IMG/VR virus record: IMGVR_UViG_3300009709_000002 | Span: 160,001-224,000 of that record | DNA length: 64,000 bases | Strand: one strand, 5' to 3' | Source of the DNA: a virus | Lineage: Duplodnaviria > Heunggongvirae > Uroviricota > Caudoviricetes | Shown here: piece by piece, positions 13,147 through 48,159 of the stretch | Numbering within the stretch: position 1 is the first letter of the stretch | Layout of the letters: each line of letters begins with the position of its first letter | Position numbers and translations under genes: made by a program | Notes under the pieces: generated by a model | What the model was told of the DNA's origin: nothing | The model's input: only the letters and a program-made list of their open reading frames with translations | Databases searched by the model: none

Positions 13147-13902
13147 TTAGTCACCTTTCTTTAAGCTTAATTCGTCATCTTGAGCTTTCATGATTTGATC
13201 ACGAAGTTTTTCTACGTAGCCATTATTGCGGAGTGCTTTAAAGACTAGATTTTCAAGGCTAAACTCACCACCGCTTTCCAAGCCAGCTCTACGAAAACGT
13301 GATAGTTTATCATTCAGCTCTTCTAATGCCGTTGCATCATTAGCACCAGATTTAGTCAGATCGTCAATTTGATTAGCAAGCTCTTTGACTTTGTGTTTAA
13401 TTTGTGATGCTTTATACTTGACATTATGCTTGCTTGGAACCTTGATCCAGGCATTATTCTTGATAGAGAATGAGCCTGAATCGGTGATGCCAGTTTCATT
13501 GTCACCATCTTGTGCATAAAGCTCAACTGGAAATCCATAGATCTCCATGTCATGACGTTCATTCCAAAGTGCTTTCTTGGCAAACAAACAATCATTGAAA
13601 TTAAACTCTTTACAGTCTTCACAATTTACTTTGCCAAGATCCAATATGACGTGAATGTCAATATCCGAAAGCTTGGTCCAATTGTAGTTAACATTGCTTC
13701 CAGTGAAGATAATGTCACTTACAGCGTCAGATGGTAGTTTCAAAGTCTCAATGAACTTATTTGCGATTCTTAAAAGAGCTGCATCAACCTTTGGCTTAAG
13801 CTCATAACCATTATGAAGTTTATCCCAAAGCGCTGGATTCAGCTCATCATGATACGCAAGCTTAAGCTCCATGTCGCTTTCAAGAAAGGTCTTGAATTTC
13901 AT
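13147..13902 (-). CDS. Pol-beta superfamily nucleotidyltransferase with capsid-targeting-like N-terminus
   Basis: TGSNVNYNWTKLSDIDIHV (GS...DxD) and PVELYAQD; N-terminus MKFKTFLE. Confidence 0.75.
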   Translation of the reverse strand: MKFKTFLESDMELKLAYHDELNPALWDKLHNGYELKPKVDAALLRIANKFIETLKLPSDAVSDIIFTGSNVNYNWTKLSDIDIHVILDLGKVNCEDCKEFNFNDCLFAKKALWNERHDMEIYGFPVELYAQDGDNETGITDSGSFSIKNNAWIKVPSKHNVKYKASQIKHKVKELANQIDDLTKSGANDATALEELNDKLSRFRRAGLESGGEFSLENLVFKALRNNGYVEKLRDQIMKAQDDELSLKKGD

Positions 13903-14444
13903 TTCACTTCCTTAGCTTGAACGTCAACGATCTGAGCTTGTTCAACTGTGTCAGCTTCCATCATCTGGCGAAGAATCGCGTTACGATCGGCGATAAAGAC
14001 GTTCTGGTTAAGCGTCTGTGGAGTTCCTGCTTGCTGGGCGGCGATGCGCAGCTTACCGCGCTTGTACTTAGCATCGACACGAGAATTCGTTGCATTCAAT
14101 GCAATGTTCAAATATTGCGCAGCAACTTCAGCGTTACGAGCAGCAAACTTCGGATCGACTTCTTGTGACATGCGTGACTGCTGGTTGAAAGCCGTCAATG
14201 CAGCGTCATGAATAGTTGCTAGCTGACGATCCACTGCCAAATCATCTAGACGATCTTCACGAGCAATATCTTCAGACGTTAGCCCATCAACCTTACGTTC
14301 AATAGCTGTTCCTGTGCTCGGATCGATCAAATCAGTCGATGGAGTCGTTGGATCAGTCTCTATGCCAAATACTGGAGTTGATCCGCTATCAATATTGAAC
14401 ACATCTTCAAGTGGATGCGAGTGTTCAGTTTCTTGACTCATCAT
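13899..14444 (-). CDS. gp16: Probable terminase small subunit
   Basis: Helical core (ARNAEVAAQYLNIALNA) and C-terminal NQNVFIADRNAIL; located near gp17; AAGGAG RBS. Confidence 0.7.
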   Translation of the reverse strand: MMSQETEHSHPLEDVFNIDSGSTPVFGIETDPTTPSTDLIDPSTGTAIERKVDGLTSEDIAREDRLDDLAVDRQLATIHDAALTAFNQQSRMSQEVDPKFAARNAEVAAQYLNIALNATNSRVDAKYKRGKLRIAAQQAGTPQTLNQNVFIADRNAILRQMMEADTVEQAQIVDVQAKEVK

Positions 14445-14451
14445 CTTCTCC

Positions 14452-14874
14452 TTATTTCTTTTTTGTAAAGAGTTCATCTTGTGTCAGAACTCTAAATCGA
14501 ATGTTAGCTTTTTCGCAATAAGCTCGTGCAGCTTCCCATTTAGCTTGATTGATTACGTAACTCACCTTCTCATAATTTGTCATTCTCTTGCTAATGACAG
14601 CTTGCTTGAGAGGTTTGATCTCAATCATCTCGGTGATGATATTTCCATTCTTATCGCGATACTTAACGATAAAGTCAGGAATGTAGTTGCAGATTTTTTG
14701 CTTAACAGGATGGTAGTACTTGACATGAACCTCTTCAGAAGCCCACTCAATTACATTGGGATTTGTATCGCAGAAAGTCATAAATCTGGCTTCCCAAGAA
14801 GACAAGAATCTAATCTTGCTTGGATCACCAACGTACTTCTCTGGATAAATGGGGGTGTATAAACCTTTGGCCAA
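14452..14874 (-). CDS. gp4: Head completion nuclease (gp4-like, TnsA-N/PD-(D/E)XK)
   Basis: PEKYVGD, SSWE, WASEE, YIPDF, EIKP and NQAKWEAA. Confidence 0.92.
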   Translation of the reverse strand: MAKGLYTPIYPEKYVGDPSKIRFLSSWEARFMTFCDTNPNVIEWASEEVHVKYYHPVKQKICNYIPDFIVKYRDKNGNIITEMIEIKPLKQAVISKRMTNYEKVSYVINQAKWEAARAYCEKANIRFRVLTQDELFTKKK

Positions 14875-14918
14875 GACTTCCTCCTATGACTATTGGAGTA
14901 TTTATCTTGGCCAGAGAT

Positions 14919-16124: not shown

Positions 16125-16125
16125 T

Positions 16126-16602
16126 TTATTCAGGCTTCAAAAGTTTCATTACTTCTTTGACAAATGCCACGGTATGCTTGTGAATGTGCTTACCCATGTG
16201 GATCTCACGCATTACAACTTCACCGTCTTTCATGATGTAATTCGTGCGCTTCTTTGACTTGATTTCGAAGGTGCGGTAAAGTGCACGAATCTTCTTGTCA
16301 AGCTCTCCACCCTTCACGATCTTGAGAGGCGCAAGCGAGTTAATTTCAAATTCACCGGAGTCAGTGCTATTGTCGAAGGTAATCATCAGGTGCTTACCCT
16401 TTTCAGTTTTCAGCACGCTCTTCGAGTTGCTAACACCATAGTACTTGTAATCCTTGCTACGTTTCAAATCACGAACATATCCACCTTTGTGATGGAAGAT
16501 CATTTCAGCGATCTTGTCGATCATGGAACGAGTCTTTTCAACCTCAGGATCTTCAATGATGTTCTTCTTAGATTCGGCCAAAAACTCTTTGAATGTCGTC
16601 AT
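16126..16602 (-). CDS. Predicted internal head protein
   Basis: MTTFKEFLAE resembles the T4 internal-protein capsid-targeting sequence; basic protein; own late promoter at 16623-16630. Confidence 0.65.
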   Translation of the reverse strand: MTTFKEFLAESKKNIIEDPEVEKTRSMIDKIAEMIFHHKGGYVRDLKRSKDYKYYGVSNSKSVLKTEKGKHLMITFDNSTDSGEFEINSLAPLKIVKGGELDKKIRALYRTFEIKSKKRTNYIMKDGEVVMREIHMGKHIHKHTVAFVKEVMKLLKPE

Positions 16603-16639
16603 GCTTAATCTCCTTATGATGCTATTTATGGAAAAGACA

Positions 16640-16660
16640 AAAGGGGCAAAATGCCCCTTT
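16640..16660 (-). terminator. Intrinsic terminator after the tail tube gene
   Basis: AAAGGGGCA-AAA-TGCCCCTTT with a T-run on the minus strand. Confidence 0.7.
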
Positions 16661-16680
16661 GTATGAACTTAAGCCGAAGC

Positions 16681-17274: not shown

Positions 17275-17363
17275 GTTAGAGTTTCTCCAGAAAGTCGACC
17301 GTCTGTGTTGTTACGGTGTAGTTTTGTACGATGTATTTATTTAGATTGTCCATTTTTCAAACT

Positions 17364-18203: not shown

Positions 18204-19121
18204 TTATACCAGTTGCGAAAGAAGCTTAATTGCTTTCTTCCATTGAGTTGGATTCTTTCTCTTCAGTGCTGCAAAGAATGGCGAGCGACGAGTGTAGGAT
18301 ATCTTCTCAAGGTCTGAGCCTTTTGGCGGTGTCGTTCCGTCTGCGTAAGTGAAGTGAGCTAGAGCTTTCTCTTTGTCATAATCCTTGACGTCAAACTCTT
18401 TTGACAAATCTTCTACACCTCTAAAATATGCAGCTTCTGACTTGATTTGAGGGTCAAATTCTACCGGTGAGTTGTAATAGTCATCACTGTTTTCATCAGT
18501 TAGATTGTCAGCAGCATAATCACTCTTCACATTATACTCATGGAACCTACGCAGCACCAAGAATTGAATCATGTGAGCAGTTTCATGGTCTACAACACCG
18601 ATCAACGATGGCAGCTTATCGAGTAAGACAGAATGAACACGATCAATATCTATGTGATCATCTAGCAACATTCCTGATTTCTTTAGTGAAAAGCTCATCG
18701 TCAGCGTAGCAGGATGAAAAGCACCAGATGATGTAAGTGAGCTTTGCTGTGAAAGATCTATTTCAGCAATCACATGATCGTAGCTGTGAAGCTTTGACAC
18801 GTCGGTGCCAAGCTTCTTCAGCTTATCCAGGTAGCGATCAGGAAGATCCGAGAAGTCAAGCTTGAACTCGTGCTCTTCAATCGTTGCTTTACCAACTTTC
18901 TCTGAATACTTGTCATCCGGAAGAGGTAGCTTATGCTTATAAGCTACCTTCTTTAGAAGCTGGTGAGCCGTATTAAAGTCTTTTCCTTCAAGATGCTCCT
19001 CAATTTTGTCTTTCGTGTAGGCTAGATAAGTGTAGACCACAAAGTCCGTGATGTCTTTCAACAGTTTTGGAGGGTTCTGAATCAGGCCCTCTTTCAAAAA
19101 TTGCTTGAATGTAACTTTCAT
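18204..19121 (-). CDS. Predicted internal head protein with HExxH (zincin-like) motif
   Basis: N-terminus MKVTFKQFLKE; DHETAHMIQ followed by YYNSPVE. Confidence 0.65.
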   Translation of the reverse strand: MKVTFKQFLKEGLIQNPPKLLKDITDFVVYTYLAYTKDKIEEHLEGKDFNTAHQLLKKVAYKHKLPLPDDKYSEKVGKATIEEHEFKLDFSDLPDRYLDKLKKLGTDVSKLHSYDHVIAEIDLSQQSSLTSSGAFHPATLTMSFSLKKSGMLLDDHIDIDRVHSVLLDKLPSLIGVVDHETAHMIQFLVLRRFHEYNVKSDYAADNLTDENSDDYYNSPVEFDPQIKSEAAYFRGVEDLSKEFDVKDYDKEKALAHFTYADGTTPPKGSDLEKISYTRRSPFFAALKRKNPTQWKKAIKLLSQLV

Positions 19122-22349: not shown

Positions 22350-22389
22350 TATTTAGATTTGATATTTATTCACAATCGTGACATAAATA
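22350..22389. promoter_or_regulatory. Divergent late promoters
   Basis: Minus-strand TAAATA at 22350-22355 and 22363-22369; plus-strand CATAAATA at 22382-22389. Confidence 0.7.
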
Positions 22390-22418: not shown

Positions 22419-23540
22419 ATGCTCTTACAAGAACTATTAAGCATCATCGCCGAAAGAGATGCACAAGCGCTCCTCGAATCATATGGCAATCTCAAGAAGA
22501 TTGATCCACAGCTGCTCAAAGCCTTCATGATGCAAGACGGCAAGGTTGACAAAAACCTTGGTGAACATTCTGAAGTTGAAGTAAATCCAAAGATCACAGA
22601 CTATCAGTCATTTGAAGATGCGTTTGTCGAAAGAGACGATACTGGCGTGATCGGCTTCATATTTGTAGTTGATGGCAAGCAAGCGATGTCAGTTGCACAT
22701 ATTGTCGATCTTGAAAATTCGCCAAATCACAGAGATGAAAAGAAGATTCATGTTGGCGTGACTAAAGCATTTGCAGATCTTTTTGATGAAGACTATATTC
22801 AAAAACATTACATGACCAATATCATCAATGCAGCTAATAGAGGATTTCCGGTCATTAATAGTCAATTTAGCCACGTGAGCAACATGGTTAGAAATTTCTT
22901 TGATGTTGTAGCTGATAAGAAGCTTAAGCTTGAAACTATTGAGGTAAAGACAGATTTTAAGCGTCTTGATAAACAAGCTAAACGTACACAGCTCAAGCGT
23001 GGTCACATTCCGCTGCCTGGTTATGATAACAAGCTGTCAAAATCAGATGGTGCAGCATATAAGAGCTACCTCGAAAAACTGAAGACAAAGCTAGAAGCAA
23101 AATTAGATCAATTAAAGCGTGACAAACTTAAGAACGCTACTACACCTGAAGAAATGGTGAAGATCGTAAAAGAAGATGGTTTCGGTGACAAAATCAAGTT
23201 CATGGGTTTCACTTATAAGCGAATTGCCTTTAGAGTAGATTATGATCACCTTCACAAAATCGCCCAGGGTAAAGGTGACGTTTGGTCAGAAAATAATTAC
23301 GTTCAGTACACCGTTGAATGGGAAGATAAGGCATATCAAAAGGTCCAAGAAGAGCTATGGGATCTTATGCCAACAAATCCTAGTAAAGTTGGTGAATCTG
23401 AAAAAGAAGAAGCACAAGAGCTATGGGATGCTTGGGAAAGACTGCAAAAACGCAAGATTCCACCAAATAGCTTGAAAATCATTATCGGATTGAAGGGCGG
23501 TATCGCCTCACCAGTTGACATCAAATTGGAGAAAAACTAA
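22419..23540 (+). CDS. Hypothetical late protein (paralog A)
   Basis: 373 aa; shares motifs with the next gene. Confidence 0.8.
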   Translation: MLLQELLSIIAERDAQALLESYGNLKKIDPQLLKAFMMQDGKVDKNLGEHSEVEVNPKITDYQSFEDAFVERDDTGVIGFIFVVDGKQAMSVAHIVDLENSPNHRDEKKIHVGVTKAFADLFDEDYIQKHYMTNIINAANRGFPVINSQFSHVSNMVRNFFDVVADKKLKLETIEVKTDFKRLDKQAKRTQLKRGHIPLPGYDNKLSKSDGAAYKSYLEKLKTKLEAKLDQLKRDKLKNATTPEEMVKIVKEDGFGDKIKFMGFTYKRIAFRVDYDHLHKIAQGKGDVWSENNYVQYTVEWEDKAYQKVQEELWDLMPTNPSKVGESEKEEAQELWDAWERLQKRKIPPNSLKIIIGLKGGIASPVDIKLEKN

Positions 23541-24874
23541 TGGTGTTGTTAGAACTTTTGAAACTACAAGAACGCAGAATTGAAGCTCATCAAGAATTCC
23601 TAGAGTTCTTGTATGAGCACCTTGGAAACTTGAACGTCATCGACAAGAGTCTCATTAAGATTCTCCGCAAACAGATGGCTGACACGTACTATGTTTCTCC
23701 TGGATCAAAACCAAATCAAGAACAATTCAAGATCGGTAAATATCTTGGAACAAATTCAACCGTTGATGAAGAACCAGCTCGAAATCCATCGCAAGTGATG
23801 AAAGCGATCATGGATGCTGAAAGCAAAGTGATCGCTGTTGTCATCAAGTATGGTGATAAGCAAGTCTGCGCCTTTGCTAGCCGGCATAAGACATTTGGCA
23901 AGCGCGGGCATAAAGATACTGATGATGATTTGCATATTATCGTGTCACCAGATTTCTTTAATATTGTTGGTTCTGGAGCCGACTATACTAAGTCAATCAC
24001 TAAACAAAAAATGGTGGCAGATCATCGCAATGGCAGCATTAAGAAACCAGTTAATGTAGTTGATGGTCACACTGTAAAGCATCTTCTTCAGGGCCATGGA
24101 GCCCAAACAAAATCATTCGATGATGTCGCTCTTAATAGTGCAAATGTAAAGAAAGTTCTAGCTTTCATTTTTGACAACGCTAAAGCTAATAACATGCAAG
24201 TGTCAATGCTGAATATTAGCAAAGATGAACAACGTCCAAAAACACAAGTAGATCGATCAAATGCGCGCCATGGCCGTATTCCATTCATGGTTCAAAAATC
24301 TTTGAAGAGCTATTCGCAAGAAGAGAAGCAAGAATATGAACGCTACACGCAAAGACTTATTAGCAAGTTTGCAGATCGTTTATCAAATTGGCGCTCAGAG
24401 AAAGCCGATAAGCAATCTCAAAAGTTCTCAAATCACGATGAACTGATTAAGCACATTTCAGCAGAAGGATTTCCAGAGAAAGTAAACTTTATGGGATATG
24501 TGTACCATAAAGAGCGTGTATCAATTGAATGGAATGATCTTGAAGCTAAGGCAAATAAAACGCTTACTGGTTACAAGGCAGCTAATCCAAGATCAGTGTA
24601 TGACAACGTGCTATACAAAATTGATCGAAAAGCACCTTCATTTATAGCTCTTAGAAATCAAATGAGAGAACTTGCTGGTGGTATTCCTGAGCAAGATGAC
24701 TCTGATCCACACGTAGCAGAAGCTCGTGATCAGTTTATTGCTGCTTACATGAGAAAGTACAAAAAGCTGGTTCCACCTGGTGACTTCATGGTTCACATGT
24801 CATTAATCGGTGGTGTAATCAAACCAACAGATATCTCAATTTCTGAAGACAATGATTACGTAGAAACGTACTAA
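23540..24874 (+). CDS. Hypothetical late protein (paralog B)
   Basis: 444 aa; TAATG-coupled to paralog A. Confidence 0.8.
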   Translation: MVLLELLKLQERRIEAHQEFLEFLYEHLGNLNVIDKSLIKILRKQMADTYYVSPGSKPNQEQFKIGKYLGTNSTVDEEPARNPSQVMKAIMDAESKVIAVVIKYGDKQVCAFASRHKTFGKRGHKDTDDDLHIIVSPDFFNIVGSGADYTKSITKQKMVADHRNGSIKKPVNVVDGHTVKHLLQGHGAQTKSFDDVALNSANVKKVLAFIFDNAKANNMQVSMLNISKDEQRPKTQVDRSNARHGRIPFMVQKSLKSYSQEEKQEYERYTQRLISKFADRLSNWRSEKADKQSQKFSNHDELIKHISAEGFPEKVNFMGYVYHKERVSIEWNDLEAKANKTLTGYKAANPRSVYDNVLYKIDRKAPSFIALRNQMRELAGGIPEQDDSDPHVAEARDQFIAAYMRKYKKLVPPGDFMVHMSLIGGVIKPTDISISEDNDYVETY

Positions 24875-27150: not shown

Positions 27151-27330
27151 TATCTACTCCACACATCGATTGATAAACTTTGCCGACGAATGGAGCAAGG
27201 ATTTTTCAGTTGTGTCCTTCCATCCGTTGATAGAGATTATATTCAAGGACAATTTGTGTGTATATTTTAAGTGACACTTTTCCACAAGCCTAGAGATAAA
27301 TACTTGCATTCCACCTTTCTTAGGCATACC

Positions 27331-28641
27331 ATGAGCTTCAAAAATTATCTCAATAAAGCTTTGAATGAAGCACCATTCGAGGATGAAGAAGACGATCCAC
27401 ATTCAGAAAAGAACCTTGGCGCTGGTATTTACTGGGCAAAGAACACCTTCCTGCATGGTAGAGTTCATCGCATCAAATCCATCGAGCAAGCAGACTGGGA
27501 TGAGCTAGTTTCTAAGTTTGGAGAGGATGAAACTACAACATTCTATGCTGGCATCAATTTTCCAACTGAAGAAGCTTGGCATGGATTCTTCAGAGCTTAC
27601 AAGAAGAATAAAGAATTCACGTCTAAAAATTACTTCTTAGCCTTCAAGCCAGAGCACAAAGCTGAAGCTGCTAAAGTAGCAACAAGAGCTGACCCTAATC
27701 ACAGTAGCGCCAGCGTCTTCAGAAATAATGAGCGTGATTACATGGAAGGTTATGCAGGTGTCGTTTTAGAGCTTGAAGCTAAACACGGTACTGCTCTAGA
27801 TCTCGTAAAGCTATTTGATAGTAGATTTGCCGGACCGAATCGTGCTGGCCCTACCAAACTTGAAGCTGACGTGCTTCCACCTGACTTAGCTTTCAAAATC
27901 AAGAAGATCGTCTCCAAGCATATTCCGTTTGGGCATGAGATCAACAAGCATAATGTCAAAGAGCATTTCATGGCGATCAAACAGCTTGAGGGACGAACGC
28001 ATGAGTTCAATCCCGAAAAGAGCTTTGACCAAAAGAAGTACAACTACATCATCAACATGTACAGCAATTTTGATGATGAGATGCGTCACCATCTATTTGA
28101 GCTCGTTTCCAAGCTCAAGCTTGAGCCGCCATCAGCAGAATTCGTGAGAGAAGATCAGAAGAAGTGGTTTGTTGATCATGAGCTCGTCATTAAGCTCACG
28201 CTCAATCTTCCGTATGAGTATCTTGTCTACTATGATGAATTTACGCCAGCAGATCAAAAGAAAGCCGATACGATCATCAAAAAGCAGCTTGAGAAGCTAG
28301 ACAAAGCCTACATGACAGAAATCGCAAAGCTGCCGAAGCCTCTTCATGAGCATGAATTCAAGATTGAACTACATGGCGTTCTTGAATATGCCGTGGCGAT
28401 GGAGCAGTATCACCATGAGCTGACGTTCGCAGCGCACTTCAATCATTCAATTGGTGAACGTTATCGCATGCTTAACAGTCGTGAATATCTCAAGAAAATC
28501 AACTCTATGGATAATCAAGATGAGCAACGACAAGCCATTAGAAAACATGGTGAGGAAGTTACTAGCATTCTCAATCAGATGCTTCACGTCAAAGAAAAGA
28601 CAGTGAGAGACGTACTAGGACGAGCTAGTGCCTGGGATTGA
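27331..28641 (+). CDS. Predicted internal head protein
   Basis: Start ATG 27331 (MSFKNYLNKALNE) downstream of late promoter GATAAATA at 27295-27302. Confidence 0.75.
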   Translation: MSFKNYLNKALNEAPFEDEEDDPHSEKNLGAGIYWAKNTFLHGRVHRIKSIEQADWDELVSKFGEDETTTFYAGINFPTEEAWHGFFRAYKKNKEFTSKNYFLAFKPEHKAEAAKVATRADPNHSSASVFRNNERDYMEGYAGVVLELEAKHGTALDLVKLFDSRFAGPNRAGPTKLEADVLPPDLAFKIKKIVSKHIPFGHEINKHNVKEHFMAIKQLEGRTHEFNPEKSFDQKKYNYIINMYSNFDDEMRHHLFELVSKLKLEPPSAEFVREDQKKWFVDHELVIKLTLNLPYEYLVYYDEFTPADQKKADTIIKKQLEKLDKAYMTEIAKLPKPLHEHEFKIELHGVLEYAVAMEQYHHELTFAAHFNHSIGERYRMLNSREYLKKINSMDNQDEQRQAIRKHGEEVTSILNQMLHVKEKTVRDVLGRASAWD

Positions 28642-31294: not shown

Positions 31295-31300
31295 GAATGT

Positions 31301-31330
31301 ATTATATTTCATCTACATCATGAAGTAAAC
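31301..31330 (-). promoter_or_regulatory. Early-type promoter for the HNH gene
   Basis: GTTTACT-N17-TATAAT, with the -10 box ending about 7 nt before ATG 31294. Confidence 0.65.
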
Positions 31331-31444: not shown

Positions 31445-32797
31445 TTAAACAAATACCAGGTTGTTTACAACGATTTTTCCATAATAGTCGGCGGAATTCG
31501 CAAGCGATGTGTTCGATGCGGTGAAGGTAGCCTTACCGTAACGAGTCAGCACTGCAAGTTGGTTGTTGTACGTTTGTGGGTCGATAACCGTGTTAGAAGT
31601 CATCAGCGGGATGTATGGGCAGTAGAAGTAACCTGCATCCGTTTCACCATTGCCACCCTTGTAACCGACCAGAACGATGTCCGACGTTGATGTTACAGTG
31701 CTGTTATCTACCGAAGCTTGCGCAACTGCAGCGAACGAAGCATTGAACAGGAACGAGTAAACCTTGATCGTGCCGTTCAGCGTACCAGCCAGGCGTGTGT
31801 TGTTCGGACCTTCGAACGAGCCAGAAACAGCTGGTGCGAATACCGACTTAGCAGCCGATTGGAGAACTGAAACAACTTGCGGGGACACAACGATGAAGTT
31901 ACCAGCACCGCGACGTGTCTTAGCAGCGATTTCGTTTGCGACCTTGTTGATCAGCACGCCCAGAACTGCATGGCGGTCACCAACATAGTGCGGAACACCC
32001 GTGAACGAACCGGACATGTCGAACGTTTCCGTTGCGCCAGCCAGCGTGATCAGGTCTGTAACGATTTCGTTGTCGATTTCGTGAACGATTTCAGCCGAAA
32101 GAGCCTGGGTGATTTCTGCTTCAAGATCAAGGCCGTGCTGCGATGCCAAGTCTTGCATAGCTTCGATCGACCACTTGGCTTGCAAGCGACGTGTCTTAGC
32201 TTCAACTGCTTGACGCAGGATCTGGATACCCATTGCACGACCTGGGAACGATTCCATATCCAGCGTGTTACCACCGTTACCAGTCAGCGGAGCTGTGGTA
32301 AGGTCAAACGTTGCTGCTGGGGTGAAAGCACCACCGATCGAAACACCGGTAGTTGGGTCAAACGGTCCGCCTGCTTGCGATGGGTTTACACCACCTGCAT
32401 AGAAACGGCGCATTTTCGATGCGTATGGTTGAACAGACGATGTGTTACCGAATGCTTCGTCGTTAACCGCGATATCACCACCTGGCGATTCTGTCGTCGT
32501 TGCGGAGTTCTTGTAAACAAGACGCATCGAGAAGATCAGGCCTGTAGGACCGTTCATTGGCTGAACACCAACGAGTTCGGTAGCAACAGTACCAGGGATA
32601 ATACGTCGAATCATCGGCAGTACGATCTTTTGGAACGAACCGATGTTACCTGCGGAAGTTACGTCAGCACCAGCAGTTTCAACCAGATACTTCTTCTGGT
32701 TTTCAAGCACTTGGTTGACGATGTTAGCACGGCGAGGATCAAGCCCATCAGTCAAGGCAGACTTGGTTCCTTCCCAATTTTCAAAAAGTTCCTTCAT
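31445..32797 (-). CDS. gp23: Major capsid protein
   Basis: GVQPMNGPTGLIF, AKTRRLQAKWSIEAMQDL, TRRGAGN, YFYCPYIPL and TRYG. Confidence 0.97.
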   Translation of the reverse strand: MKELFENWEGTKSALTDGLDPRRANIVNQVLENQKKYLVETAGADVTSAGNIGSFQKIVLPMIRRIIPGTVATELVGVQPMNGPTGLIFSMRLVYKNSATTTESPGGDIAVNDEAFGNTSSVQPYASKMRRFYAGGVNPSQAGGPFDPTTGVSIGGAFTPAATFDLTTAPLTGNGGNTLDMESFPGRAMGIQILRQAVEAKTRRLQAKWSIEAMQDLASQHGLDLEAEITQALSAEIVHEIDNEIVTDLITLAGATETFDMSGSFTGVPHYVGDRHAVLGVLINKVANEIAAKTRRGAGNFIVVSPQVVSVLQSAAKSVFAPAVSGSFEGPNNTRLAGTLNGTIKVYSFLFNASFAAVAQASVDNSTVTSTSDIVLVGYKGGNGETDAGYFYCPYIPLMTSNTVIDPQTYNNQLAVLTRYGKATFTASNTSLANSADYYGKIVVNNLVFV

Positions 32798-33744: not shown

Positions 33745-33926
33745 GCTTGTGTCTCCGTAAATGGTTGAAAATACATCCATTCTTTACAATGGATATTTAT
33801 ACCTGGCCATCAAAAACTCATCTTTTTTGGCCTCTTTTCCTATGCATAAGGCTCAAGTTGATGTTCTTGAGCCTTAAGCGAAGGTATTTATAAGCTCGAA
33901 AGCTTAAAAATCTGGAAGAACTGGAA

Positions 33927-34253
33927 TTAGTCTTCTTTAGGAACGTCAGCTTCATCAGAGTAGAATGACAGATGCTTGTTCGTGTCATTATACAAGACGT
34001 ATGCGTTGCCAAAACGTTTGACTTTTCCGTCATCAGCGAGGCCGAGTAGGTCAACCAGAGCTTCAATGATAGGGTCTTCATTCTTAATGAAAACAACCTT
34101 ACCCTTCAGGCCTGGAATCAGCTTACGGTCGGAGTAGCCAACGTGAACACGCTTGAGTTCGAAAGACTCAGTGAGCGATGTAGCTGGAGCTGTCGTTTCT
34201 TTAACTTCATCAATGATGCCGAGCTTCTTGAAAATTTCTGCGAAATCTGACAT
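33927..34253 (-). CDS. Small head-module protein
   Basis: 108 aa, translationally coupled, between gp21 and gp22. Confidence 0.7.
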   Translation of the reverse strand: MSDFAEIFKKLGIIDEVKETTAPATSLTESFELKRVHVGYSDRKLIPGLKGKVVFIKNEDPIIEALVDLLGLADDGKVKRFGNAYVLYNDTNKHLSFYSDEADVPKED

Positions 34254-34654
34254 TATTCGTCCTTCTTGTGCTTTGCGTCGAATTCTTGCTTCTTAGCGAT
34301 GTCTTCGGCGTGCTTAGCAAAGTGAATTGCTTCACCGTCCCAAGTTACAAAGCCATGAGCAATCTTCTTTGGTTCTGGATCATGCATGCTGAGACCTAGG
34401 AAATTAGCGAGAATGAACGCACCATTCTTCTTTTCATAAGTACCTTCAGATTCAATCACGAAGATGAAACCCTGTTGGTCCTTCAGGTCATGGACTTCTA
34501 CAAGACCAAGCTTGTATGTTTTTGCTTCGCCATCACCCTTGCTAAGAGCCTCTGTTACTACAGGAGGAACAATTGCTTCTTTCTTAGCGGCGGTTGCGAT
34601 GCGATGCTTAATGCCTGCAAGTTCCTGCAGGCGAACTGCCGTATCATCACTCAT
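34253..34654 (-). CDS. Small head-module protein
   Basis: 133 aa, coupled to gp21; N-terminal RLQELAGIK. Confidence 0.7.
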   Translation of the reverse strand: MSDDTAVRLQELAGIKHRIATAAKKEAIVPPVVTEALSKGDGEAKTYKLGLVEVHDLKDQQGFIFVIESEGTYEKKNGAFILANFLGLSMHDPEPKKIAHGFVTWDGEAIHFAKHAEDIAKKQEFDAKHKKDE

Positions 34655-35292
34655 TATTCACCTTTGATTTGTTGGCCTGTCAGCTTTTCGAAGAAAGCAG
34701 CCAGTTCTTTCTTGAAGTACTTCTGTGCAGTTGGATCATGAATGACTGATTCAGCCAGAGTCATAACCTTCTTGTTGTCTTGCAAGCTTTCCATGACGTG
34801 GCCAGGGAATGCGTTTGGAGCAGATGGAGTTGCTACAATGTCAACTGTTACCAAGTTGAATTGCGAAACCACACCTTCGTTTACGTTACCAGATCCGCGT
34901 GACGATACACCAAGCTTACCACCAGCTTCCAGAATGGCCTTGACCATCTGTCCCATAGGGTGACCTTCAATAATACGTGCCTTACCGATAGCGTTAGAGC
35001 CATCCATGTACATTTCTGTAATGATGTGCGATACGTTCTTCAGGTCAATGCTAAGATTGTCAGGGTGGTTAAGTTCACCGTAAACGGTGATACCTTCTTT
35101 GATCTTGCGGTTGATGTCATTAACGGCAGAGCAAATTTCGGCAAGCGGGTATTTGCGTTGGTTACCATTCAGGACATCGGCTTGCATGAAAATACCAGAC
35201 AAGTAAGAAGACTTACTCTTCTGGTTGTCTTCAATGATAACATTAGCTACTGCCGGGTGAATGCTTTCGATAAGAACTAGCTCTTTAGCCAT
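34654..35292 (-). CDS. gp21: Prohead protease
   Basis: GIFMQAD, NGNQRKYP, GELNHP, GVSSRGSG and DIVATPS. Confidence 0.95.
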   Translation of the reverse strand: MAKELVLIESIHPAVANVIIEDNQKSKSSYLSGIFMQADVLNGNQRKYPLAEICSAVNDINRKIKEGITVYGELNHPDNLSIDLKNVSHIITEMYMDGSNAIGKARIIEGHPMGQMVKAILEAGGKLGVSSRGSGNVNEGVVSQFNLVTVDIVATPSAPNAFPGHVMESLQDNKKVMTLAESVIHDPTAQKYFKKELAAFFEKLTGQQIKGE

Positions 35293-35370
35293 AATGTTCT
35301 CTCCTGTTCAATTATGATGAAGCTATTTATCGCTATCACTTCACCATAATTGAATTTGCGGAGAATTTAC

Positions 35371-37101
35371 TTATTTTCCTTCATCTTTGTCCTTAGAGCT
35401 TGGCGTTTCCGCTTCAGTTCCTTCGGCTTCAGTGTTTGTATCTTCCTTGTCCTTATCTTTGTCCTCGGACGTATCTTCAGACGTTGAACCTTCCGACTCG
35501 GAACCTTCACCTTGAGTATCTTCACCTTCTGGAGTTTCACTTTCTGACTCCTCTCCTTCCGGTTCCTCACCCTTCGGCTTCTCTGTTTCCTTCTCGTAGT
35601 TGTCATAATCATCCGACACCTTGATGTCTGGACGGCCTTCTTGCCACTTCTTGTCGTACATCATGCGGACTGCATCAAGACCTGGAGCAATACCATCATC
35701 TGGAATGTTGCGTTCTTGCTTCAGAAGCGCTTCATTCATCTTGATGTCATCTTCCGTATAATTCAAGTAGCGGATCAGACCGTAACGTGCTGAGATCGAC
35801 TCGATGTCCTTGACGCTGCTGTAGATGCTCATCAGCTTTTCATCAACTTCAGCTTGCTTGTAGATGTCGAAGTCTTGTGGCGCTGGAAGCTCGATGCGGA
35901 ACAAGAATGGATCAATGTTGATACCAGCCGCCTTCAAGTATGCCTTGAAGTGAGTATCGAAGGTGCGATTGATCTTCGATTGAAGACGTGAAACGAAATT
36001 AGCGAAACGAAGTTCCTCAATGTAAGCTACACCAACCTTACCATCTGAAACTTGACCGCCTTGATCCGAGCTACCACGCATGTATGATGATGGAATACGT
36101 AGGCCTTGAAGCAGCTTGTTTTGGAAGTAGTTCAAGTCAGAGATCTCACCGAGATTTTCACCGCCGGAGAGTGTTTCAACGCGTGAGCCACGACCGTTTG
36201 CAGATTGAGCGAAGAAGTAATCTTCAGTCATCGACATTGGGTTGTAGACCGAATCGATCTTTTCCTGACCACCAGATTCATTCGGAACACGCTTTTGGCG
36301 AACTTCATTCTTGATCGACTCAAGGTATGACTTCACACGCTGTGGCGGCATGTTACCAGTGTCGATAAAGAACACACGACGCTCTGGAGCACGAACGATA
36401 CGATAGATGATGACAGAATCTTCAAGCAGCGTCAAGTGACGATATGCCTTGACGACCGGGAAGAGCACCGATTCACCAAACGGGCCAGATTCACCCATGC
36501 CGCTCGACAGAGAGAAGTGGATGATACCAGCTGCTGGAACGATTTCAACGTCGCCAAACGCGCCCTTGTCATTCTTAGCGCCAGTGCGAAGGTGATAGTG
36601 TGTTGCGCGGTTCGTTTCCTTATCCAGCACGACACCAATGATGTCTCGCGGATCAAGATACATCCACTTCTTGAAGTCGGATGTTTTACGGAAGAAGCAA
36701 TCACCGTACTTTATAACAACACGTGCAATGTCGAACACGATGTGGTTCAAGTCTTGAACTTCACACCAGTGACGAAGAGCTGCACGAACTAACTCGGTGA
36801 TATTTTGGTCAACAGAACGGCTCACTTCATTTTGATAGTTGATGTCAAATGGAAGATGAGTCTTAGTGTTCTTGTTTGTCATTTCTTCGGCGATCGTATC
36901 TAGCGCTCGAGCGACAAATACGTCTGAGTCCATGCCTACGTACTGAGTGTACTTAGAGGCACGAGAAGACGCGCCCTTCATAACCTTCGTGTACCACGAG
37001 AAGTTATTGAAGAACTTTGTTTCCTCTGGACTAGCGTTGTATGTCGTCTTTACCGGAGCCGGTTTGACAATACGCCAATAGTCTGTGAAAATTCCAGCCA
37101 T
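35371..37101 (-). CDS. gp20: Portal protein
   Basis: LLEDSVIIYRIVRAPERRVFFIDTGNMP, EDYFF and GGENLG. Confidence 0.96.
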   Translation of the reverse strand: MAGIFTDYWRIVKPAPVKTTYNASPEETKFFNNFSWYTKVMKGASSRASKYTQYVGMDSDVFVARALDTIAEEMTNKNTKTHLPFDINYQNEVSRSVDQNITELVRAALRHWCEVQDLNHIVFDIARVVIKYGDCFFRKTSDFKKWMYLDPRDIIGVVLDKETNRATHYHLRTGAKNDKGAFGDVEIVPAAGIIHFSLSSGMGESGPFGESVLFPVVKAYRHLTLLEDSVIIYRIVRAPERRVFFIDTGNMPPQRVKSYLESIKNEVRQKRVPNESGGQEKIDSVYNPMSMTEDYFFAQSANGRGSRVETLSGGENLGEISDLNYFQNKLLQGLRIPSSYMRGSSDQGGQVSDGKVGVAYIEELRFANFVSRLQSKINRTFDTHFKAYLKAAGINIDPFLFRIELPAPQDFDIYKQAEVDEKLMSIYSSVKDIESISARYGLIRYLNYTEDDIKMNEALLKQERNIPDDGIAPGLDAVRMMYDKKWQEGRPDIKVSDDYDNYEKETEKPKGEEPEGEESESETPEGEDTQGEGSESEGSTSEDTSEDKDKDKEDTNTEAEGTEAETPSSKDKDEGK

Positions 37102-43476: not shown

Positions 43477-43477
43477 A

Positions 43478-43565
43478 TTGTGGTGCTCCTATTTGTATGG
43501 CAAATATTTATGGAGCACCACAAAAGCAGTAAAATGATTCTATTTCAGGCGGCCATGTTTGTAAA
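43478..43565 (-). promoter_or_regulatory. Sigma70-like promoter, RBS-sequestering hairpin and internal late promoter
   Basis: TTTACA-N17-TAGAAT (43565-43537); 12-bp stem 43478-43489 / 43512-43523; CATAAATA at 43512-43505. Confidence 0.75.
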
Positions 43566-43585
43566 TTTTACATCAAGGAGTTCAC

Positions 43586-46407: not shown

Positions 46408-46723
46408 CGGGAGCGTGTCTGTCCAATTCACGAATGAACTTATCGTATGCATCGATGAGTACGTCGGCTTGAGCCTGAAGGTTTTCAGCCTCTCGACGCT
46501 TCAGAAGAGCTTCATCACGCTTACGCATAGCATCTGCTCTAATTCTTTCGGCGTTAATTTTTAAGCTGTTGTATTCATCTTTTGACATATTTGGGTCTAT
46601 CGTTATAGTTGTTGGGTTGCTCCAGCCAAACCAATCTTCACAGGGCAGTGGGCCGCCTCTTTCTCGCCGCATTATGGCAAGTTGTTCACGGCACCATCGT
46701 GGTTCATCATCAAGAACTGACAT
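46400..46723 (-). CDS. Hypothetical protein
   Basis: 107 aa, closely packed between gp55 and gp47. Confidence 0.65.
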   Translation of the reverse strand: MSVLDDEPRWCREQLAIMRRERGGPLPCEDWFGWSNPTTITIDPNMSKDEYNSLKINAERIRADAMRKRDEALLKRREAENLQAQADVLIDAYDKFIRELDRHAPDA

Positions 46724-46726
46724 GAC

Positions 46727-47335
46727 TTAGTCATTCATCGGTTCTTCAAAGTTGAAATACTCTGTGACTGCTTTTGCATCTACTGTTCCAAGCAGCGCTG
46801 CTTTTTCAGCATCAGCAATCGCTTTTTGTTCAGCTTCATTTTTAACACGTTCTTTAGCATCAACGATGTTCTGCTTCATTTCTTCAAACTCAGTCTTGTA
46901 TTCACCGCCATCAGCTTGTTCGCGGGCAGCGTCTGCAAAATTATAGCTTGGGTTTTCGCCGAGGTCGATGAGAAGTTCATCACGAATGCGACGGTGCTTC
47001 TTCTCATGATTCAAGAACTGCAGGAAGGTATTGTTGATGCAGGTGGTGTAGAACGAGAATGGATTGTCTGAGCGTTCAGGATCAAACTTGAGAGCATTTT
47101 GGCATAGGTTGGCCAAAGCTTCACAGATCATATCCTCTTTGAATGAGTACCCAGAGAAGCAAGGACGTTGTGCATACTTACGAGTCAACGTCATCAGCAT
47201 CACTGCAAGTTCATTCGTTATGCGATTCAACTTCTTGCAGCGAATAACCTCAGGGAGAAGTTTCGCGTTTGTCAGGTAATACTTGCCGACAAATTCCGGC
47301 GTATTTGGGTTTTTGGCCCGCTTGGCTGCTTTCAT
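46727..47335 (-). CDS. gp55: Late transcription sigma factor
   Basis: YYLTNAKL, FSGYSFKEDM and KFDPERSDNPFSFYT; consistent with the many TAAATA promoters. Confidence 0.9.
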   Translation of the reverse strand: MKAAKRAKNPNTPEFVGKYYLTNAKLLPEVIRCKKLNRITNELAVMLMTLTRKYAQRPCFSGYSFKEDMICEALANLCQNALKFDPERSDNPFSFYTTCINNTFLQFLNHEKKHRRIRDELLIDLGENPSYNFADAAREQADGGEYKTEFEEMKQNIVDAKERVKNEAEQKAIADAEKAALLGTVDAKAVTEYFNFEEPMND

Positions 47336-47493
47336 GTAAATCTCTTATAACGTATTGCGGTGAGTGCACAATGCATCTCCTGTTGTTTAGACAAGTACGA
47401 TAGTATCATACATTCAACAAGAGGTGAATTTTTCGACATAGATCAGGAAATAAATAGACCTGTACCAATAGTTATTTATTCTTGCCAGAGACC

Positions 47494-48159
47494 ATGAAAC
47501 TAGACGAAATTTTACGCATTAGCGAAGATCAGGAAGAAAAGAATGAGAAGCTACTTGCCGTGGTCTACGGAGGTAGGTTTGAACCTTTCCACAAGGGTCA
47601 CTACGCTGTTTACAAGCACCTTAAGCACATGTTTGATCCTGAAAGCGTCTGGATCGCGACATCTGACAAGACGAATTTTAGCAAGCACAACGGCGACATT
47701 TCGCCATTCAACTTTCAAGAAAAGAAAGAGCTGATGCTTCGTCTGTTTAGAATGGAAGAGGATAAAATCGTGAAGTGCTCTAACCCAGCTTTCAATCCAC
47801 GAGAAATCTTTGAGCGCTATGATAATGCTCCGCTTGTCTACGTAGCAGTAGTAGGTGAAAAGGACGTTGAGCGCTACAAGGCTGCCAAGTTCTTTAAGCC
47901 ATATCCGACGGTGAATGGTGGTCATGCTCTTCCGTTCAATGAAGCTAAAGATGGGCTGAAGACGTTGGCTGAGAAAGTTGGTTACTACCTGCCGATCAAG
48001 AAACAGTCTGGTGGCATTTCAGGCACGGAAGTTCGTGAAAAGCTTCTTGAAGCAGCCGATGATGATCACAAGCTTCACGAGCTGTTCAAAGAATTTTTCG
48101 GCCACTATGATGAGATCGCCAAAGATTTGATCATCAGCAAGCTTAAGGAAGTAAAGTGA
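47494..48159 (+). CDS. HIGH-motif nucleotidyltransferase (cytidylyltransferase/NMNAT-like)
   Basis: YGGRFEPFHKGH, SPFNFQEK, VGEKD and ISGTEVR; late promoter at 47449-47456. Confidence 0.8.
   Translation: MKLDEILRISEDQEEKNEKLLAVVYGGRFEPFHKGHYAVYKHLKHMFDPESVWIATSDKTNFSKHNGDISPFNFQEKKELMLRLFRMEEDKIVKCSNPAFNPREIFERYDNAPLVYVAVVGEKDVERYKAAKFFKPYPTVNGGHALPFNEAKDGLKTLAEKVGYYLPIKKQSGGISGTEVREKLLEAADDDHKLHELFKEFFGHYDEIAKDLIISKLKEVK

What the first reader, a model, noticed from the sequence alone, without database searches (positions are those of the whole stretch)
13147..48159. Dispersed family of proteins with capsid-targeting-like N-termini: an injected enzyme arsenal
Seen: otherwise unrelated genes start MKFKTFLE-S (13902), MTTFKEFLAE-S (16602), MKVTFKQFLKE-G (19121) and MSFKNYLNKALNE-A (27331). 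A looser second class is MLLQELLSIIAE (22419), MVLLELLKLQE (23540) and MKLDEILRISE (47494). All lie in late transcription units. Known: T4 internal proteins use an MKT(Y/F)(Q/K)EF..E capsid-targeting peptide removed by gp21 after (I/L)-X-E, and are injected with the DNA. gp23 here has a matching YLVE-T site. Inference: a modular tag loads a nucleotidyltransferase, a HExxH protein, a HIGH-motif transferase and several unknowns into the head so they act before transcription.
Basis: partly seen in the sequence, partly recalled or inferred. Interest (0 to 1): 0.8.

Follow-up and report, generated by a model that had tools for sequence, protein, structure and literature searches.

The report
Capsid-loading tags on jumbo-phage proteins
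A 360-kb T4-related jumbo phage puts a short N-terminal tag, almost identical to the one phage T4 uses to load proteins into its head, on several unrelated enzymes and on a 40-gene family of small repeat proteins. The phage therefore probably ships a large protein kit into the host with its DNA; the mechanism is known, but its scale and cargo here are new.

Summary
All seven N-termini are present as quoted. In a six-frame scan of the whole 360,227-bp genome, the core F[KR]x[FY]Lx(0-2)E occurs 19 times, always within 5 residues of a start Met, and 18 of these head ORFs of at least 158 aa.

The tag nearly matches T4's capsid-targeting sequence as read from the T4 record (MKTYQEFIAE, MKTFKEFIKE). 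It ends in the same [FY]LxE motif as this phage's capsid-protein site YLVE|T, which aligns with T4 gp23 FLTE65|A.

- Orthologs at 25-34% identity keep the tag.
- Codons vary synonymously.
- The tagged genes sit behind a late-promoter-like ATAAATA.

In the nearest cultured relative, RsoM2USA, two tagged proteins are among ten identified in purified virions.

Packaging of the in-window enzymes, tag cleavage and injection are inferred. Evidence for the three in-window second-class genes is weak.

The scan has reported similar tags before on other phage DNA. Verdict: a new member of a known kind, of moderate interest.

The parts
13147..13902 (-). 251-aa Pol-beta-type nucleotidyltransferase with class-1 leader MKFKTFLE|S (tag codons 13879-13902)
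   Evidence: N-terminus read. Pfam NTP_transf_2 scores 20.6 bits against a cut-off of 21, and phrog_36119 scores 2.4e-59. The G-S...D-I-D motif is in the sequence. The gene lies between a late operon and the large terminase gene.
16126..16602 (-). 158-aa basic protein (mature pI 9.7) with class-1 leader MTTFKEFLAE|S, and its own ATAAATA box at 16623-16629
   Evidence: No homolog was found in phage records and there is no family hit.
18204..19121 (-). 305-aa HExxH protein with class-1 leader MKVTFKQFLKE|G
   Evidence: The tag, and H179/E180/H183, are kept in orthologs of XacN1, RAS14 and Xoo-sp13 at 25-28% identity. They are also kept in metagenome orthologs at 34-88% identity. In the AlphaFold model the tag is a detached, low-confidence helix at residues 5-10.
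27331..28641 (+). 436-aa protein of unknown function with class-1 leader MSFKNYLNKALNE|A, and an ATAAATA box at 27296-27302
   Evidence: The RsoM2USA ortholog ORF337 (31% identity over residues 131-416) starts MNFKSFLN.
22419..23540 (+). 373-aa protein with class-2-like leader MLLQELLSIIAE|R, and an ATAAATA box at 22383-22389
   Evidence: It has a Nif11-like stretch. The only homologs found are its neighbour and a 99%-identical metagenome copy.
23540..24874 (+). 444-aa paralog of the previous gene, with leader MVLLELLKLQE|R
   Evidence: Full-length BLASTP match to 22419-23540, 21% identity, E 4e-15.
47494..48159 (+). 221-aa HIGH-motif (HKGH) cytidylyltransferase-like, NMNAT-like protein with a leader of about 20 aa starting MKLDEILRISE|D, and an ATAAATA box at 47450-47456
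   Evidence: Pfam CTP_transf_like scores 1.4e-09 and its match starts at residue 24. There are weak PDB hits to NMN/NaMN adenylyltransferases. An untagged NadM-Nudix-like paralog lies elsewhere in the genome.
31445..32797 (-). Major capsid protein (gp23 type) with predicted maturation site KKYLVE|T after residue 40
   Evidence: Pfam Gp23 scores 2.1e-94. The site aligns with T4 gp23 FLTE65|A. The 65-residue T4 propeptide is stated in PMC9958956.
32830..33780 (-). Scaffold (gp22-like) protein rich in LxE sites, including DSFLAE|Q. The probable true start is Met13 (MDEILKKLLE|S), which resembles the class-2 leader
   Evidence: phrog_237 head scaffolding protein scores 1.7e-05. Sites are listed. 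Orthologs in RsoM2USA and XacN1 start at the equivalent Met.
33927..34654 (-). Two small genes (108 and 133 aa) between the protease and scaffold genes, candidate prohead-core proteins with several (L/I/V)xE sites
   Evidence: Position and sites are. There is no family hit, so the role is inferred from gene order only.
34654..35292 (-). T4-type prohead protease (Peptidase S77, gp21-like)
   Evidence: Pfam PF03420 scores 2.6e-28. An ATAAATA box lies at 35324-35330.
35371..37101 (-). Portal protein
   Evidence: phrog_213 scores 5.5e-96.

Best explanation
The leaders are capsid-targeting propeptides of the T4 kind. The class-1 leader follows M-(K/T)-x(0-2)-F-K-x-(F/Y)-L-x-E. Its aliphatic variant follows M-K-L-x-E-(I/L)-L-x-E.

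Proposed mechanism:
1. Late in infection the tagged proteins are made together with the head proteins.
2. The short amphipathic N-terminal helix docks them onto the gp22-like scaffolding core of the prohead. It resembles the scaffold protein's own N-terminus.
3. The S77 (gp21-like) prohead protease removes the leader after the Glu of (F/Y/L/I)-L/x-x-E. This is the same kind of site it should cut in the capsid protein (YLVE|T) and in the scaffold.
4. The mature proteins stay in the head with the DNA and enter the host at infection.

The cargo is about 45-50 proteins. In the window it includes a Pol-beta-type nucleotidyltransferase, an HExxH protein, a basic 158-aa protein and a 436-aa unknown. 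Less certainly it also includes two 373/444-aa paralogs and an NMNAT-like transferase. Elsewhere in the genome there is a 40-member family of roughly 200-aa LRR-like proteins (7% of the genome), and these are probably binders of host proteins.

Shown here: the tag's specificity to N-termini, its similarity to the T4 tag, its conservation, the matching protease sites, the late-promoter context, and virion presence of two tagged proteins in a relative. Inferred: docking to the scaffold, cleavage, residence inside the head, injection, and any anti-defence role.
For: 1. Specificity. All 19 six-frame occurrences of the core are next to a start Met, and none is internal. They fall in at least 7 families that are unrelated by BLAST.

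2. Similarity to T4, read from the T4 record itself. ipII and ipIII start MKTYQEFIAE, ipI starts MKTFKEFTS and 61.1 starts MKTFKEFIKE, against MTTFKEFLAE here. T4 alt starts MELITELFDE, against the class-2 pattern MKLKELLTE.

3. Matching protease sites. The capsid protein's YLVE|T aligns with T4 gp23 FLTE65|A, and PMC9958956 states the 65-residue propeptide. The scaffold has DSFLAE|Q. An S77 protease is present.

4. Selection acts on the peptide.
- Orthologs at 25-34% identity keep the tag.
- The RsoM2USA ortholog of the 436-aa protein keeps it.
- The Leu is written with six different codons and the Phe with two.

5. Late expression. ATAAATA occurs 108 times against about 20 for control heptamers. 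52 sites lie 20-50 nt upstream of an ORF start, against 0-3 for the controls. The boxes precede the portal, protease, scaffold, sheath and tube genes, and also the tagged genes at 16602, 22419, 27331 and 47494 and many family members.

6. Virion evidence in the nearest cultured relative, RsoM2USA.
- ORF89 starts MKTFKQFLSES, has a calculated mass of 28.56 kDa, and is a homolog of the LRR-like family.
- ORF438 starts MLTFKQYAQPILTE|G and is 35% identical (E 4e-89) to this phage's tagged 504-aa protein.
- Both are among the ten proteins identified by LC-MS/MS from purified virions (PMC8504454).

7. The two tag classes alternate at the same position within one family. This holds here (13 class 1, 20 class 2, 7 other) and in metagenome relatives (37 class 1, 68 class 2 and 33 other among 138).

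8. In AlphaFold models the tag is an N-terminal helix. In the HExxH protein it is detached from the fold.

9. The T4 reviews describe exactly this arrangement: diverse internal proteins that share only a conserved targeting sequence (PMC3012670).
Against: - There are no proteomic data for this phage. None of the seven in-window proteins has an ortholog shown to be in a virion.
- The RsoM2USA paper gives ORF89 its full-length mass, so nothing shows cleavage. Its masses for ORF257 and ORF438 do not match the coding sequences.
- The XacN1 virion enzymes named in the paper's main text (chitinase, lipase, M23 peptidase) carry no tag, so the tag is not the only route into the particle.
- In the LRR-like family the tag is the start of a long helix (residues 2-24) that belongs to the fold, so it could serve the family's own structure.
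- Homologs of the nucleotidyltransferase in cyanophages and in phage Cr30 sit beside replication genes. They have loosely similar amphipathic N-termini, so that leader may be partly inherited with the enzyme.
- Two leaders (MKFKTFLE|S and MKFKTFLE|A) lack the spacer residue and put Phe, not Leu or Ile, at P3.
Confidence: 0.68

Rival explanations
1. The leader is an assembly or propeptide signal for the virion in general (neck, tail or baseplate, or a transient assembly factor), not a ticket to the head interior. The tagged proteins would be structural or morphogenetic and would not be injected effectors.
For: The in-window tagged genes are interleaved with tail-tube, sheath-stabiliser, neck and baseplate genes. 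The virion mass spectrometry in RsoM2USA does not say where in the particle ORF89 and ORF438 sit. The HExxH protein has a weak PHROG match to a 'virion structural protein'.
Against: The tag matches the T4 head-interior signal and the head protease's cleavage motif, not any known tail signal. Cargo such as a nucleotidyltransferase and an NMNAT-like enzyme has no obvious structural role. A family of 40 divergent LRR-like paralogs is unlike a structural component.
Confidence: 0.13
2. The motif is a general N-terminal amphipathic helix kept for another reason, such as oligomerisation, regulated degradation, chaperone recognition or efficient translation initiation. Its likeness to the T4 tag would then be convergent or incidental.
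For: In the LRR-like family the tag is continuous with helix 2-24 of the fold. Nucleotidyltransferase homologs in other phage types begin with loosely similar sequences. MK-rich, AT-rich starts are common in highly expressed genes (general knowledge).
Against: Synonymous codon variation at Phe, Leu and Lys argues against an mRNA-level signal. The motif ends in the protease site shared with the capsid and scaffold proteins. It is never internal to a protein. It is attached to unrelated folds and is detached from the fold in the HExxH model. It co-occurs with late promoters. Two bearers are virion proteins in a relative.
Confidence: 0.12
3. The shared N-termini are chance, or only traces of recombination among paralogs, and have no function.
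For: 13 of the 19 class-1 bearers belong to one paralog family, and two of the three in-window class-2 genes are paralogs of each other.
Against: Six further class-1 bearers are unrelated singletons. About 4 six-frame matches are expected from amino-acid composition (my own rough estimate), against 19 observed, all at starts. The tag is conserved in orthologs at 25-34% identity, where most of the protein has diverged.
Confidence: 0.04

Closest known systems
Phage T4 capsid-targeting sequence (CTS) on internal proteins IPI, IPII and IPIII and on Alt, removed by the gp21 prohead protease (Mullaney and Black 1996, as summarised in PMC3012670, PMC5694885 and PMC9958956)
   Same: - A 10-13-residue N-terminal leader of nearly the same sequence: T4 MKTYQEFIAE and MKTFKEFIKE against MTTFKEFLAE and MKFKEFLKE here.
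- It ends in (L/I)-x-E.
- It sits on otherwise unrelated proteins.
- The same head module is present (gp23-type capsid protein, gp22-like scaffold, S77 protease).
- The capsid cleavage sites align.
- The genes are in a late-gene context.
- The second flavour resembles the Alt N-terminus MELITELFDE.
   Different: - The host phage is a 360-kb jumbo phage of the XacN1/RsoM2USA group, not a T-even phage.
- About 45-50 bearers are predicted, against a handful in T4.
- The cargo differs: a 40-member LRR-like family, a Pol-beta nucleotidyltransferase, an HExxH protein and an NMNAT-like enzyme, rather than small IPs and an ADP-ribosyltransferase.
- Cleavage, packaging and injection are untested here.
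Ralstonia phage RsoM2USA virion proteins ORF89 and ORF438 (PMC8504454)
   Same: They are homologs of this phage's LRR-like family and of its tagged 504-aa protein. They carry the same leaders (MKTFKQFLSES and MLTFKQYAQPILTE). They were identified by LC-MS/MS from purified virions.
   Different: The paper calls them unknown or uncharacterised and does not mention a shared leader, processing or location in the particle. RsoM2USA has at least 15 family members, against 40 here.
Ejection/inner-body proteins of phiKZ-like giant phages (SPN3US, phiKZ) with protease-removed propeptides (PMC5694885, PMC10052503)
   Same: Many head-internal proteins are loaded with the help of N-terminal propeptides, which a T4-related prohead protease cuts after Glu, and are then ejected into the host.
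   Different: Those propeptides are mostly longer than 100 residues and are not a short shared tag. Those phages lack a recognisable gp22 scaffold and belong to another lineage.
Earlier notes of this scan on other phage genomes (for example e1-5341566, e1-1940937, e1-1097889)
   Same: Short T4-CTS-like leaders on unrelated enzymes or on arrays of repeat-protein paralogs in T4-like and jumbo phages.
   Different: They concern different genomes and cargo families. They are unchecked AI notes and are not used here as evidence.

Membership tests
T4-type capsid-targeting (CTS) cargo system | The phage encodes a T4-type prohead protease (gp21, Peptidase S77) | tested here: met
   Pfam PF03420 scores 2.6e-28 on window 34654-35292(-).
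T4-type capsid-targeting (CTS) cargo system | A gp23-type capsid protein with an N-terminal propeptide ending in (L/I)-x-E at the site homologous to T4's | tested here: met
   Pfam Gp23 scores 2.1e-94. YLVE40|T aligns with T4 FLTE65|A. Actual cleavage was not tested.
T4-type capsid-targeting (CTS) cargo system | A gp22-like scaffolding core protein to which the tag can bind | tested here: inconclusive
   Window 32830-33780 is acidic, helical and rich in LxE, lies next to the capsid gene, and matches phrog_237 'head scaffolding protein' at only 1.7e-05. Binding is not testable here.
T4-type capsid-targeting (CTS) cargo system | A short (10-20 aa) N-terminal leader shared by otherwise unrelated proteins and ending in (L/I)-x-E | tested here: met
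   19 ORFs in at least 7 unrelated families. The core is never internal to a protein.
T4-type capsid-targeting (CTS) cargo system | Leader sequence similar to the T4 CTS | tested here: met
   T4 N-termini were read from NC_000866. MTTFKEFLAE matches MKTFKEFIKE at 7 of 10 positions, and two of the three differences (L for I, T for K) are conservative.
T4-type capsid-targeting (CTS) cargo system | Tagged proteins are made late, together with the head proteins | tested here: inconclusive
   ATAAATA boxes lie 20-50 nt upstream of head and tail genes and of tagged genes. This is a promoter-like motif only, with no transcript data.
T4-type capsid-targeting (CTS) cargo system | Tagged proteins are present in purified virions | tested here: inconclusive
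   There are no data for this phage. In RsoM2USA two tagged homologs (ORF89, ORF438) are among the ten virion proteins found by LC-MS/MS. None of the in-window proteins is covered.
T4-type capsid-targeting (CTS) cargo system | The prohead protease removes the leader | not testable with these tools
   This needs N-terminal or semi-tryptic peptide data.
T4-type capsid-targeting (CTS) cargo system | The leader is sufficient to load a foreign protein, and the cargo is injected into the host | not testable with these tools
   This needs tag-reporter fusions and infection experiments.
Leucine-rich-repeat proteins (the 40-member paralog family) | LRR solenoid fold or repeat signature | tested here: inconclusive
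   The AlphaFold model has pLDDT 92 and shows short beta-strand repeats. The best Foldseek hits are all LRR proteins (internalins, Toll, SDS22), with probability up to 1.00 but E of only 0.02 and TM 0.3. Pfam LRR_4 scores 20.5 bits, below its cut-off of 27. Long LRR proteins match the family profile through repeated stretches.
Pol-beta-superfamily nucleotidyltransferase (PF01909) | G-[SG] followed 9-13 residues later by D-x-D, and a Pfam score above the cut-off | tested here: inconclusive
   The motif FTGS...LSDIDIHV is present. Pfam scores 20.6 bits against a cut-off of 21. There is no PDB relative by sequence.
Cytidylyltransferase-like / HIGH-motif nucleotidyltransferases (PF01467) | Pfam match above the cut-off and an H-x-G-H motif | tested here: met
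   38.7 bits against a cut-off of 21. HKGH is in the sequence. Assignment to NMN adenylyltransferases specifically rests on weak PDB hits (E 0.007-0.025) and is inconclusive.
Zinc metallopeptidases with HExxH | An invariant HExxH and a zincin-like fold | tested here: inconclusive
   H179, E180 and H183 are invariant in two alignments. Fold searches gave no significant match: Foldseek best E 0.86, VIA best Z 5.8 on a helical tail.

The most novel reading that the evidence does not exclude
The phage carries in its head a ready-made, diversified library of about 40 small LRR binders, plus enzymes (a nucleotidyltransferase, an NMNAT-like transferase and an HExxH protein), all addressed by one T4-type tag. 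The set is injected to neutralise host defences before any phage gene is expressed. On this reading the hypervariable LRR family is a phage counterpart of a receptor repertoire, and the NMNAT-like enzyme is a pre-packed answer to NAD-depleting defences.
Probability: 0.25. Interest if true: 0.75.

Novelty: new member of a known kind. Interest (0 to 1): 0.5.

Why it matters
If the tag works as in T4, sequence alone gives a list of about 45-50 candidate injected proteins for a poorly known group of soil jumbo phages. The group includes biocontrol candidates such as RsoM2USA and XacN1.

The finding also points to a large, widespread and unnamed family of small LRR-like virion proteins. The family has at least 694 clusters at E of 1e-10 or better in public metagenomes, and its variable half looks like the product of an arms race.

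It also suggests that the T4 tag, already used to load foreign proteins into T4 heads, is portable across a much wider range of phages. The claim can be tested directly with standard virion proteomics.

Tried and rejected
- The exact T4 late promoter TATAAATA gave only 2+19 sites and missed most late genes. The shorter ATAAATA is the informative core.
- A strict DNA pattern for MKFKx[FY]L found nothing in RsoM2USA. A looser pattern was needed.
- The ESM Atlas gave no usable lead for the 436-aa and 158-aa proteins. A 0.85 score to Arr-type ADP-ribosyltransferase is at chance level.
- PDB sequence searches gave nothing for the nucleotidyltransferase or the HExxH protein.
- Foldseek and VIA searches with the HExxH model gave no credible fold match.
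- A single-sequence word search for an LRR-family member found only itself. The family profile was needed.
- The 373-aa and 158-aa proteins have no homologs in the phage records. The 373-aa protein has only a 99%-identical metagenome copy, so conservation of its leader could not be tested.
- A profile comparison of the LRR family with the 373-aa protein showed no relation.
- The XacN1 virion enzymes (chitinase, lipase, M23 peptidase) were checked for tags and have none.
- The PA5oct omics paper and the 2026 jumbo-phage review do not mention short targeting leaders.

Full report
**What the window is.** The window is bases 160001-224000 of a single 360,227-bp contig with 46.9% G+C. Its capsid-portal region matches, at the DNA level, only distant jumbo myophages: Ralstonia phage RsoM2USA, Xanthomonas phages XacN1 and Xoo-sp13, Stenotrophomonas phages CM1 and RAS14, and more weakly the Rak2/121Q-like phages. 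The head module is of the T4 type:
- a gp23-family capsid protein at 31445-32797(-), Pfam 2.1e-94;
- an S77 prohead protease at 34654-35292(-), 2.6e-28;
- a portal at 35371-37101(-);
- an acidic, LxE-rich scaffold-like protein at 32830-33780(-).

The flagged genes lie among the terminase, tail tube, sheath stabiliser, neck, sheath and baseplate genes.

**Check of the observation.** All seven N-termini are as quoted. I then asked whether the motif is special. In the six-frame translation of the whole genome the core F[KR]x[FY]Lx(0-2)E occurs 19 times. Every occurrence lies within five residues of a Met, 18 head ORFs of 158-504 aa, and none is internal to a protein. The nineteenth heads a 16-codon ORF. 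With the 27331 gene, whose Glu comes later (MSFKNYLNKALNE), that gives 19 tagged ORFs. Six are singletons unrelated by BLAST, four of them in the window. Thirteen belong to one large paralog family. The Leu of the tag is written with six different codons and the Phe with two, so selection acts on the peptide and not on the mRNA.

All-against-all BLAST shows a 40-member family of roughly 200-aa proteins. Most lie in a tandem array at genome positions 279.9-306.5 kb, outside the window, and the family makes up 7% of the genome. Thirteen members start MKFKx[FY]LxE. About twenty start MK(L/I/V)x(E/D)(I/L)LxE at the same alignment position, and seven have other starts.

The family also has a variable first half, LRR-like repeats, and a strongly conserved extreme C-terminus (...CQxELIDAGxEEYAKL). 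No Pfam or PHROG family fits it. An AlphaFold model built on the 34 tandem paralogs is confident (pLDDT 92). It shows a helix at residues 2-24, a short beta-solenoid and C-terminal helices. Its best Foldseek matches are all LRR proteins such as internalins, Toll and SDS22, with probability up to 1.00 but E of only 0.02.

A profile search of 1.84 billion cluster representatives finds 694 proteins at E of 1e-10 or better. Of the 138 top hits of about 200 aa, 37 begin with class 1, 68 with class 2 and 33 with neither.

**Comparison with T4, from the T4 record itself.** ipII and ipIII begin MKTYQEFIAE, ipI begins MKTFKEFTS..., gene 61.1 begins MKTFKEFIKE and alt begins MELITELFDE. The tag MTTFKEFLAE at 16602 shares 7 of 10 residues with MKTFKEFIKE. 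Class 2 resembles the Alt start.

The capsid protein here has KKYLVE|T at residue 40, and in a MAFFT alignment this falls exactly on T4 gp23 FLTE|A. The Glu of that T4 site is residue 65, and PMC9958956 states that gp21 removes a 65-residue N-terminal region. The scaffold contains DSFLAE|Q and many other LxE sites. So the tag ends in the same motif as the phage's own predicted maturation sites.

One further parallel stands out. T4 gp22 begins MLKEQLIAEA, close to the T4 tag. The scaffold here, started at Met13 as in its RsoM2USA and XacN1 orthologs, begins MDEILKKLLES, close to class 2. This fits a tag that co-assembles with the scaffold by imitating its N-terminal helix. That is an inference.

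**Conservation.**
- The HExxH protein (18204-19121) has orthologs in XacN1 (ORF117, MKTSFRQFLAES), RAS14 (MTQSFKQFLIEA) and Xoo-sp13 (MKQTFSQYLLEF) at 25-28% identity. The tag and the HExxH motif are among the few invariant positions.
- Four metagenome orthologs at 46-88% identity keep the tag. The most distant, at 34%, keeps only ILEG.
- The 436-aa protein's ortholog in RsoM2USA starts MNFKSFLN.
- RsoM2USA has at least eight more class-1 ORFs and many class-2 starts, and at least 15 members of the LRR-like family. XacN1 has only two or three tags.

**Timing.** The heptamer ATAAATA is the core of the T4 late promoter TATAAATA (my knowledge). It occurs 108 times, against 19-23 for composition-matched control heptamers. 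52 copies lie 20-50 nt upstream of a same-strand ORF start, against 0-3 for the controls. It precedes the portal, protease, scaffold, sheath, tube and neck genes. It also precedes the tagged genes at 16602, 22419, 27331 and 47494, and many LRR-family genes. The other tagged genes abut upstream late genes.

**Experimental anchor.** The RsoM2USA paper identified ten proteins from the most abundant SDS-PAGE bands of purified virions by LC-MS/MS (PMC8504454).
- Its ORF89 (66030-66791) has a calculated mass of 28.56 kDa, against 28.57 in the paper. It begins MKTFKQFLSES and is a homolog of the LRR-like family, with the same repeats and C-terminal motif.
- Its ORF438 begins MLTFKQYAQPILTE|G. It is 35% identical (E 4e-89) to this phage's tagged 504-aa protein, which starts MPNTFRTYLKEN at genome 248832-250346.

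Two of ten virion proteins thus carry the tag, while about 2% of RsoM2USA ORFs do. The paper does not comment on the leader, on processing or on location in the particle. Its masses for ORF257 and ORF438 do not match the coding sequences.

**The in-window cargo.**
- 13147-13902: a Pol-beta-type nucleotidyltransferase. It has the G-S...D-I-D motif, scores 0.4 bit below the Pfam cut-off, and matches phrog_36119. Homologs occur in T4-like cyanophages, phage Cr30 and huge uncultured phages.
- 16126-16602: a lysine-rich 158-aa protein whose mature form has pI 9.7. It has its own late box and no relatives.
- 18204-19121: an HExxH protein of unknown fold.
- 27331-28641: a 436-aa protein of unknown function.
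- 22419-23540 and 23540-24874: paralogs of each other, with only a near-identical metagenome copy found elsewhere.
- 47494-48159: a HIGH-motif (HKGH) cytidylyltransferase-like protein nearest to NMN/NaMN adenylyltransferases. Its Pfam match starts at residue 24, which leaves a leader of about 20 residues. The genome also has an untagged NadM-Nudix-like paralog.

**Weak points.**
- Nothing shows packaging, cleavage or injection in this phage.
- The three in-window class-2 genes rest on a late box, an LxE-ended leader and analogy. They amount to only two independent cases.
- In the LRR family the tag is part of a long structural helix.
- Nucleotidyltransferase homologs elsewhere sit beside replication genes and have loosely similar starts.
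- The XacN1 virion enzymes named in its paper lack tags.

**Novelty.** The principle is textbook T4 biology: diverse internal proteins share only a targeting sequence (PMC3012670). In the held literature I found no mention of short T4-like targeting leaders in the XacN1/RsoM2USA/Rak2-type jumbo phages, nor of this LRR-like family. This scan has itself reported similar tags on other phage DNA. I therefore class the finding as a new member of a known kind. Its interest lies in the scale, the two-flavoured tag, and the large unnamed cargo family with virion evidence in a relative.

Noticed in passing
genome 279969-306456 plus scattered copies (outside the window, which is genome 160001-224000): A 40-member family of roughly 200-aa LRR-like proteins has a hypervariable first half and an almost invariant extreme C-terminus, ...CQxELIDAGxEEYAKL. 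That C-terminus is also conserved in hundreds of metagenome clusters. Its role is unexplained; it could be a second address or a binding module.
   Followed up: partly
window 33745-33780 (start of the scaffold gene): The first ATG of the scaffold ORF lies only about 13 nt after the ATAAATA box. Orthologs in RsoM2USA and XacN1 start at the equivalent of Met13 (MDEILKKLLES), so the true start is probably 33744. That N-terminus resembles the class-2 tag, just as T4 gp22 (MLKEQLIAEA) resembles the T4 tag.
   Followed up: partly
genome 253516-253566 (+), outside the window: A 16-codon ORF starts with a class-1-like tag and then stops (MESFRRFLSENYMLSY*). It may be the remnant of a lost cargo gene.
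   Followed up: no
window 30647-31312 (-): A Cys-rich 221-aa protein with HNH/endonuclease VII-like PHROG matches sits between the capsid and sheath genes. It is probably a homing endonuclease inserted in the late cluster.
   Followed up: no
genome 50960-52180 (-) and window 47494-48159 (+): The phage has two NMNAT-like genes. One is a 406-aa NadM-Nudix-like form without a tag. The other is a 221-aa form with a leader and a late-promoter-like box, directly upstream of the baseplate genes.
   Followed up: partly
L036-L040 (cyanophages DSL-LC03 and S-CRM01, Caulobacter phage Cr30, uncultured LR756502, Maribacter phage Molly_1): Homologs of the tagged nucleotidyltransferase in very different phages also begin with short amphipathic leaders ahead of the conserved YHDxLNPxLW block, for example MNLESFLEQ, MRKFSQLLED and MNLKTLVETD. 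In several of these phages the gene lies next to DNA polymerase.
   Followed up: partly
RsoM2USA (MG752970) ORF257 and ORF438: The masses given in PMC8504454 (17.57 and 51.69 kDa) are lower than those of the annotated coding sequences (19.65 and 62.43 kDa), whereas ORF86 and ORF89 match exactly. This could be an error or could reflect processed forms.
   Followed up: no
whole genome; window boxes at 22383, 27296, 47450 (+) and 14899, 16623, 17334, 22363, 30545, 33794, 35324, 37133 (-): ATAAATA behaves as the late-promoter core of this phage. It has 108 copies, half of them 20-50 nt upstream of ORF starts. A gp55-like late sigma factor candidate lies at window 46727-47335.
   Followed up: partly
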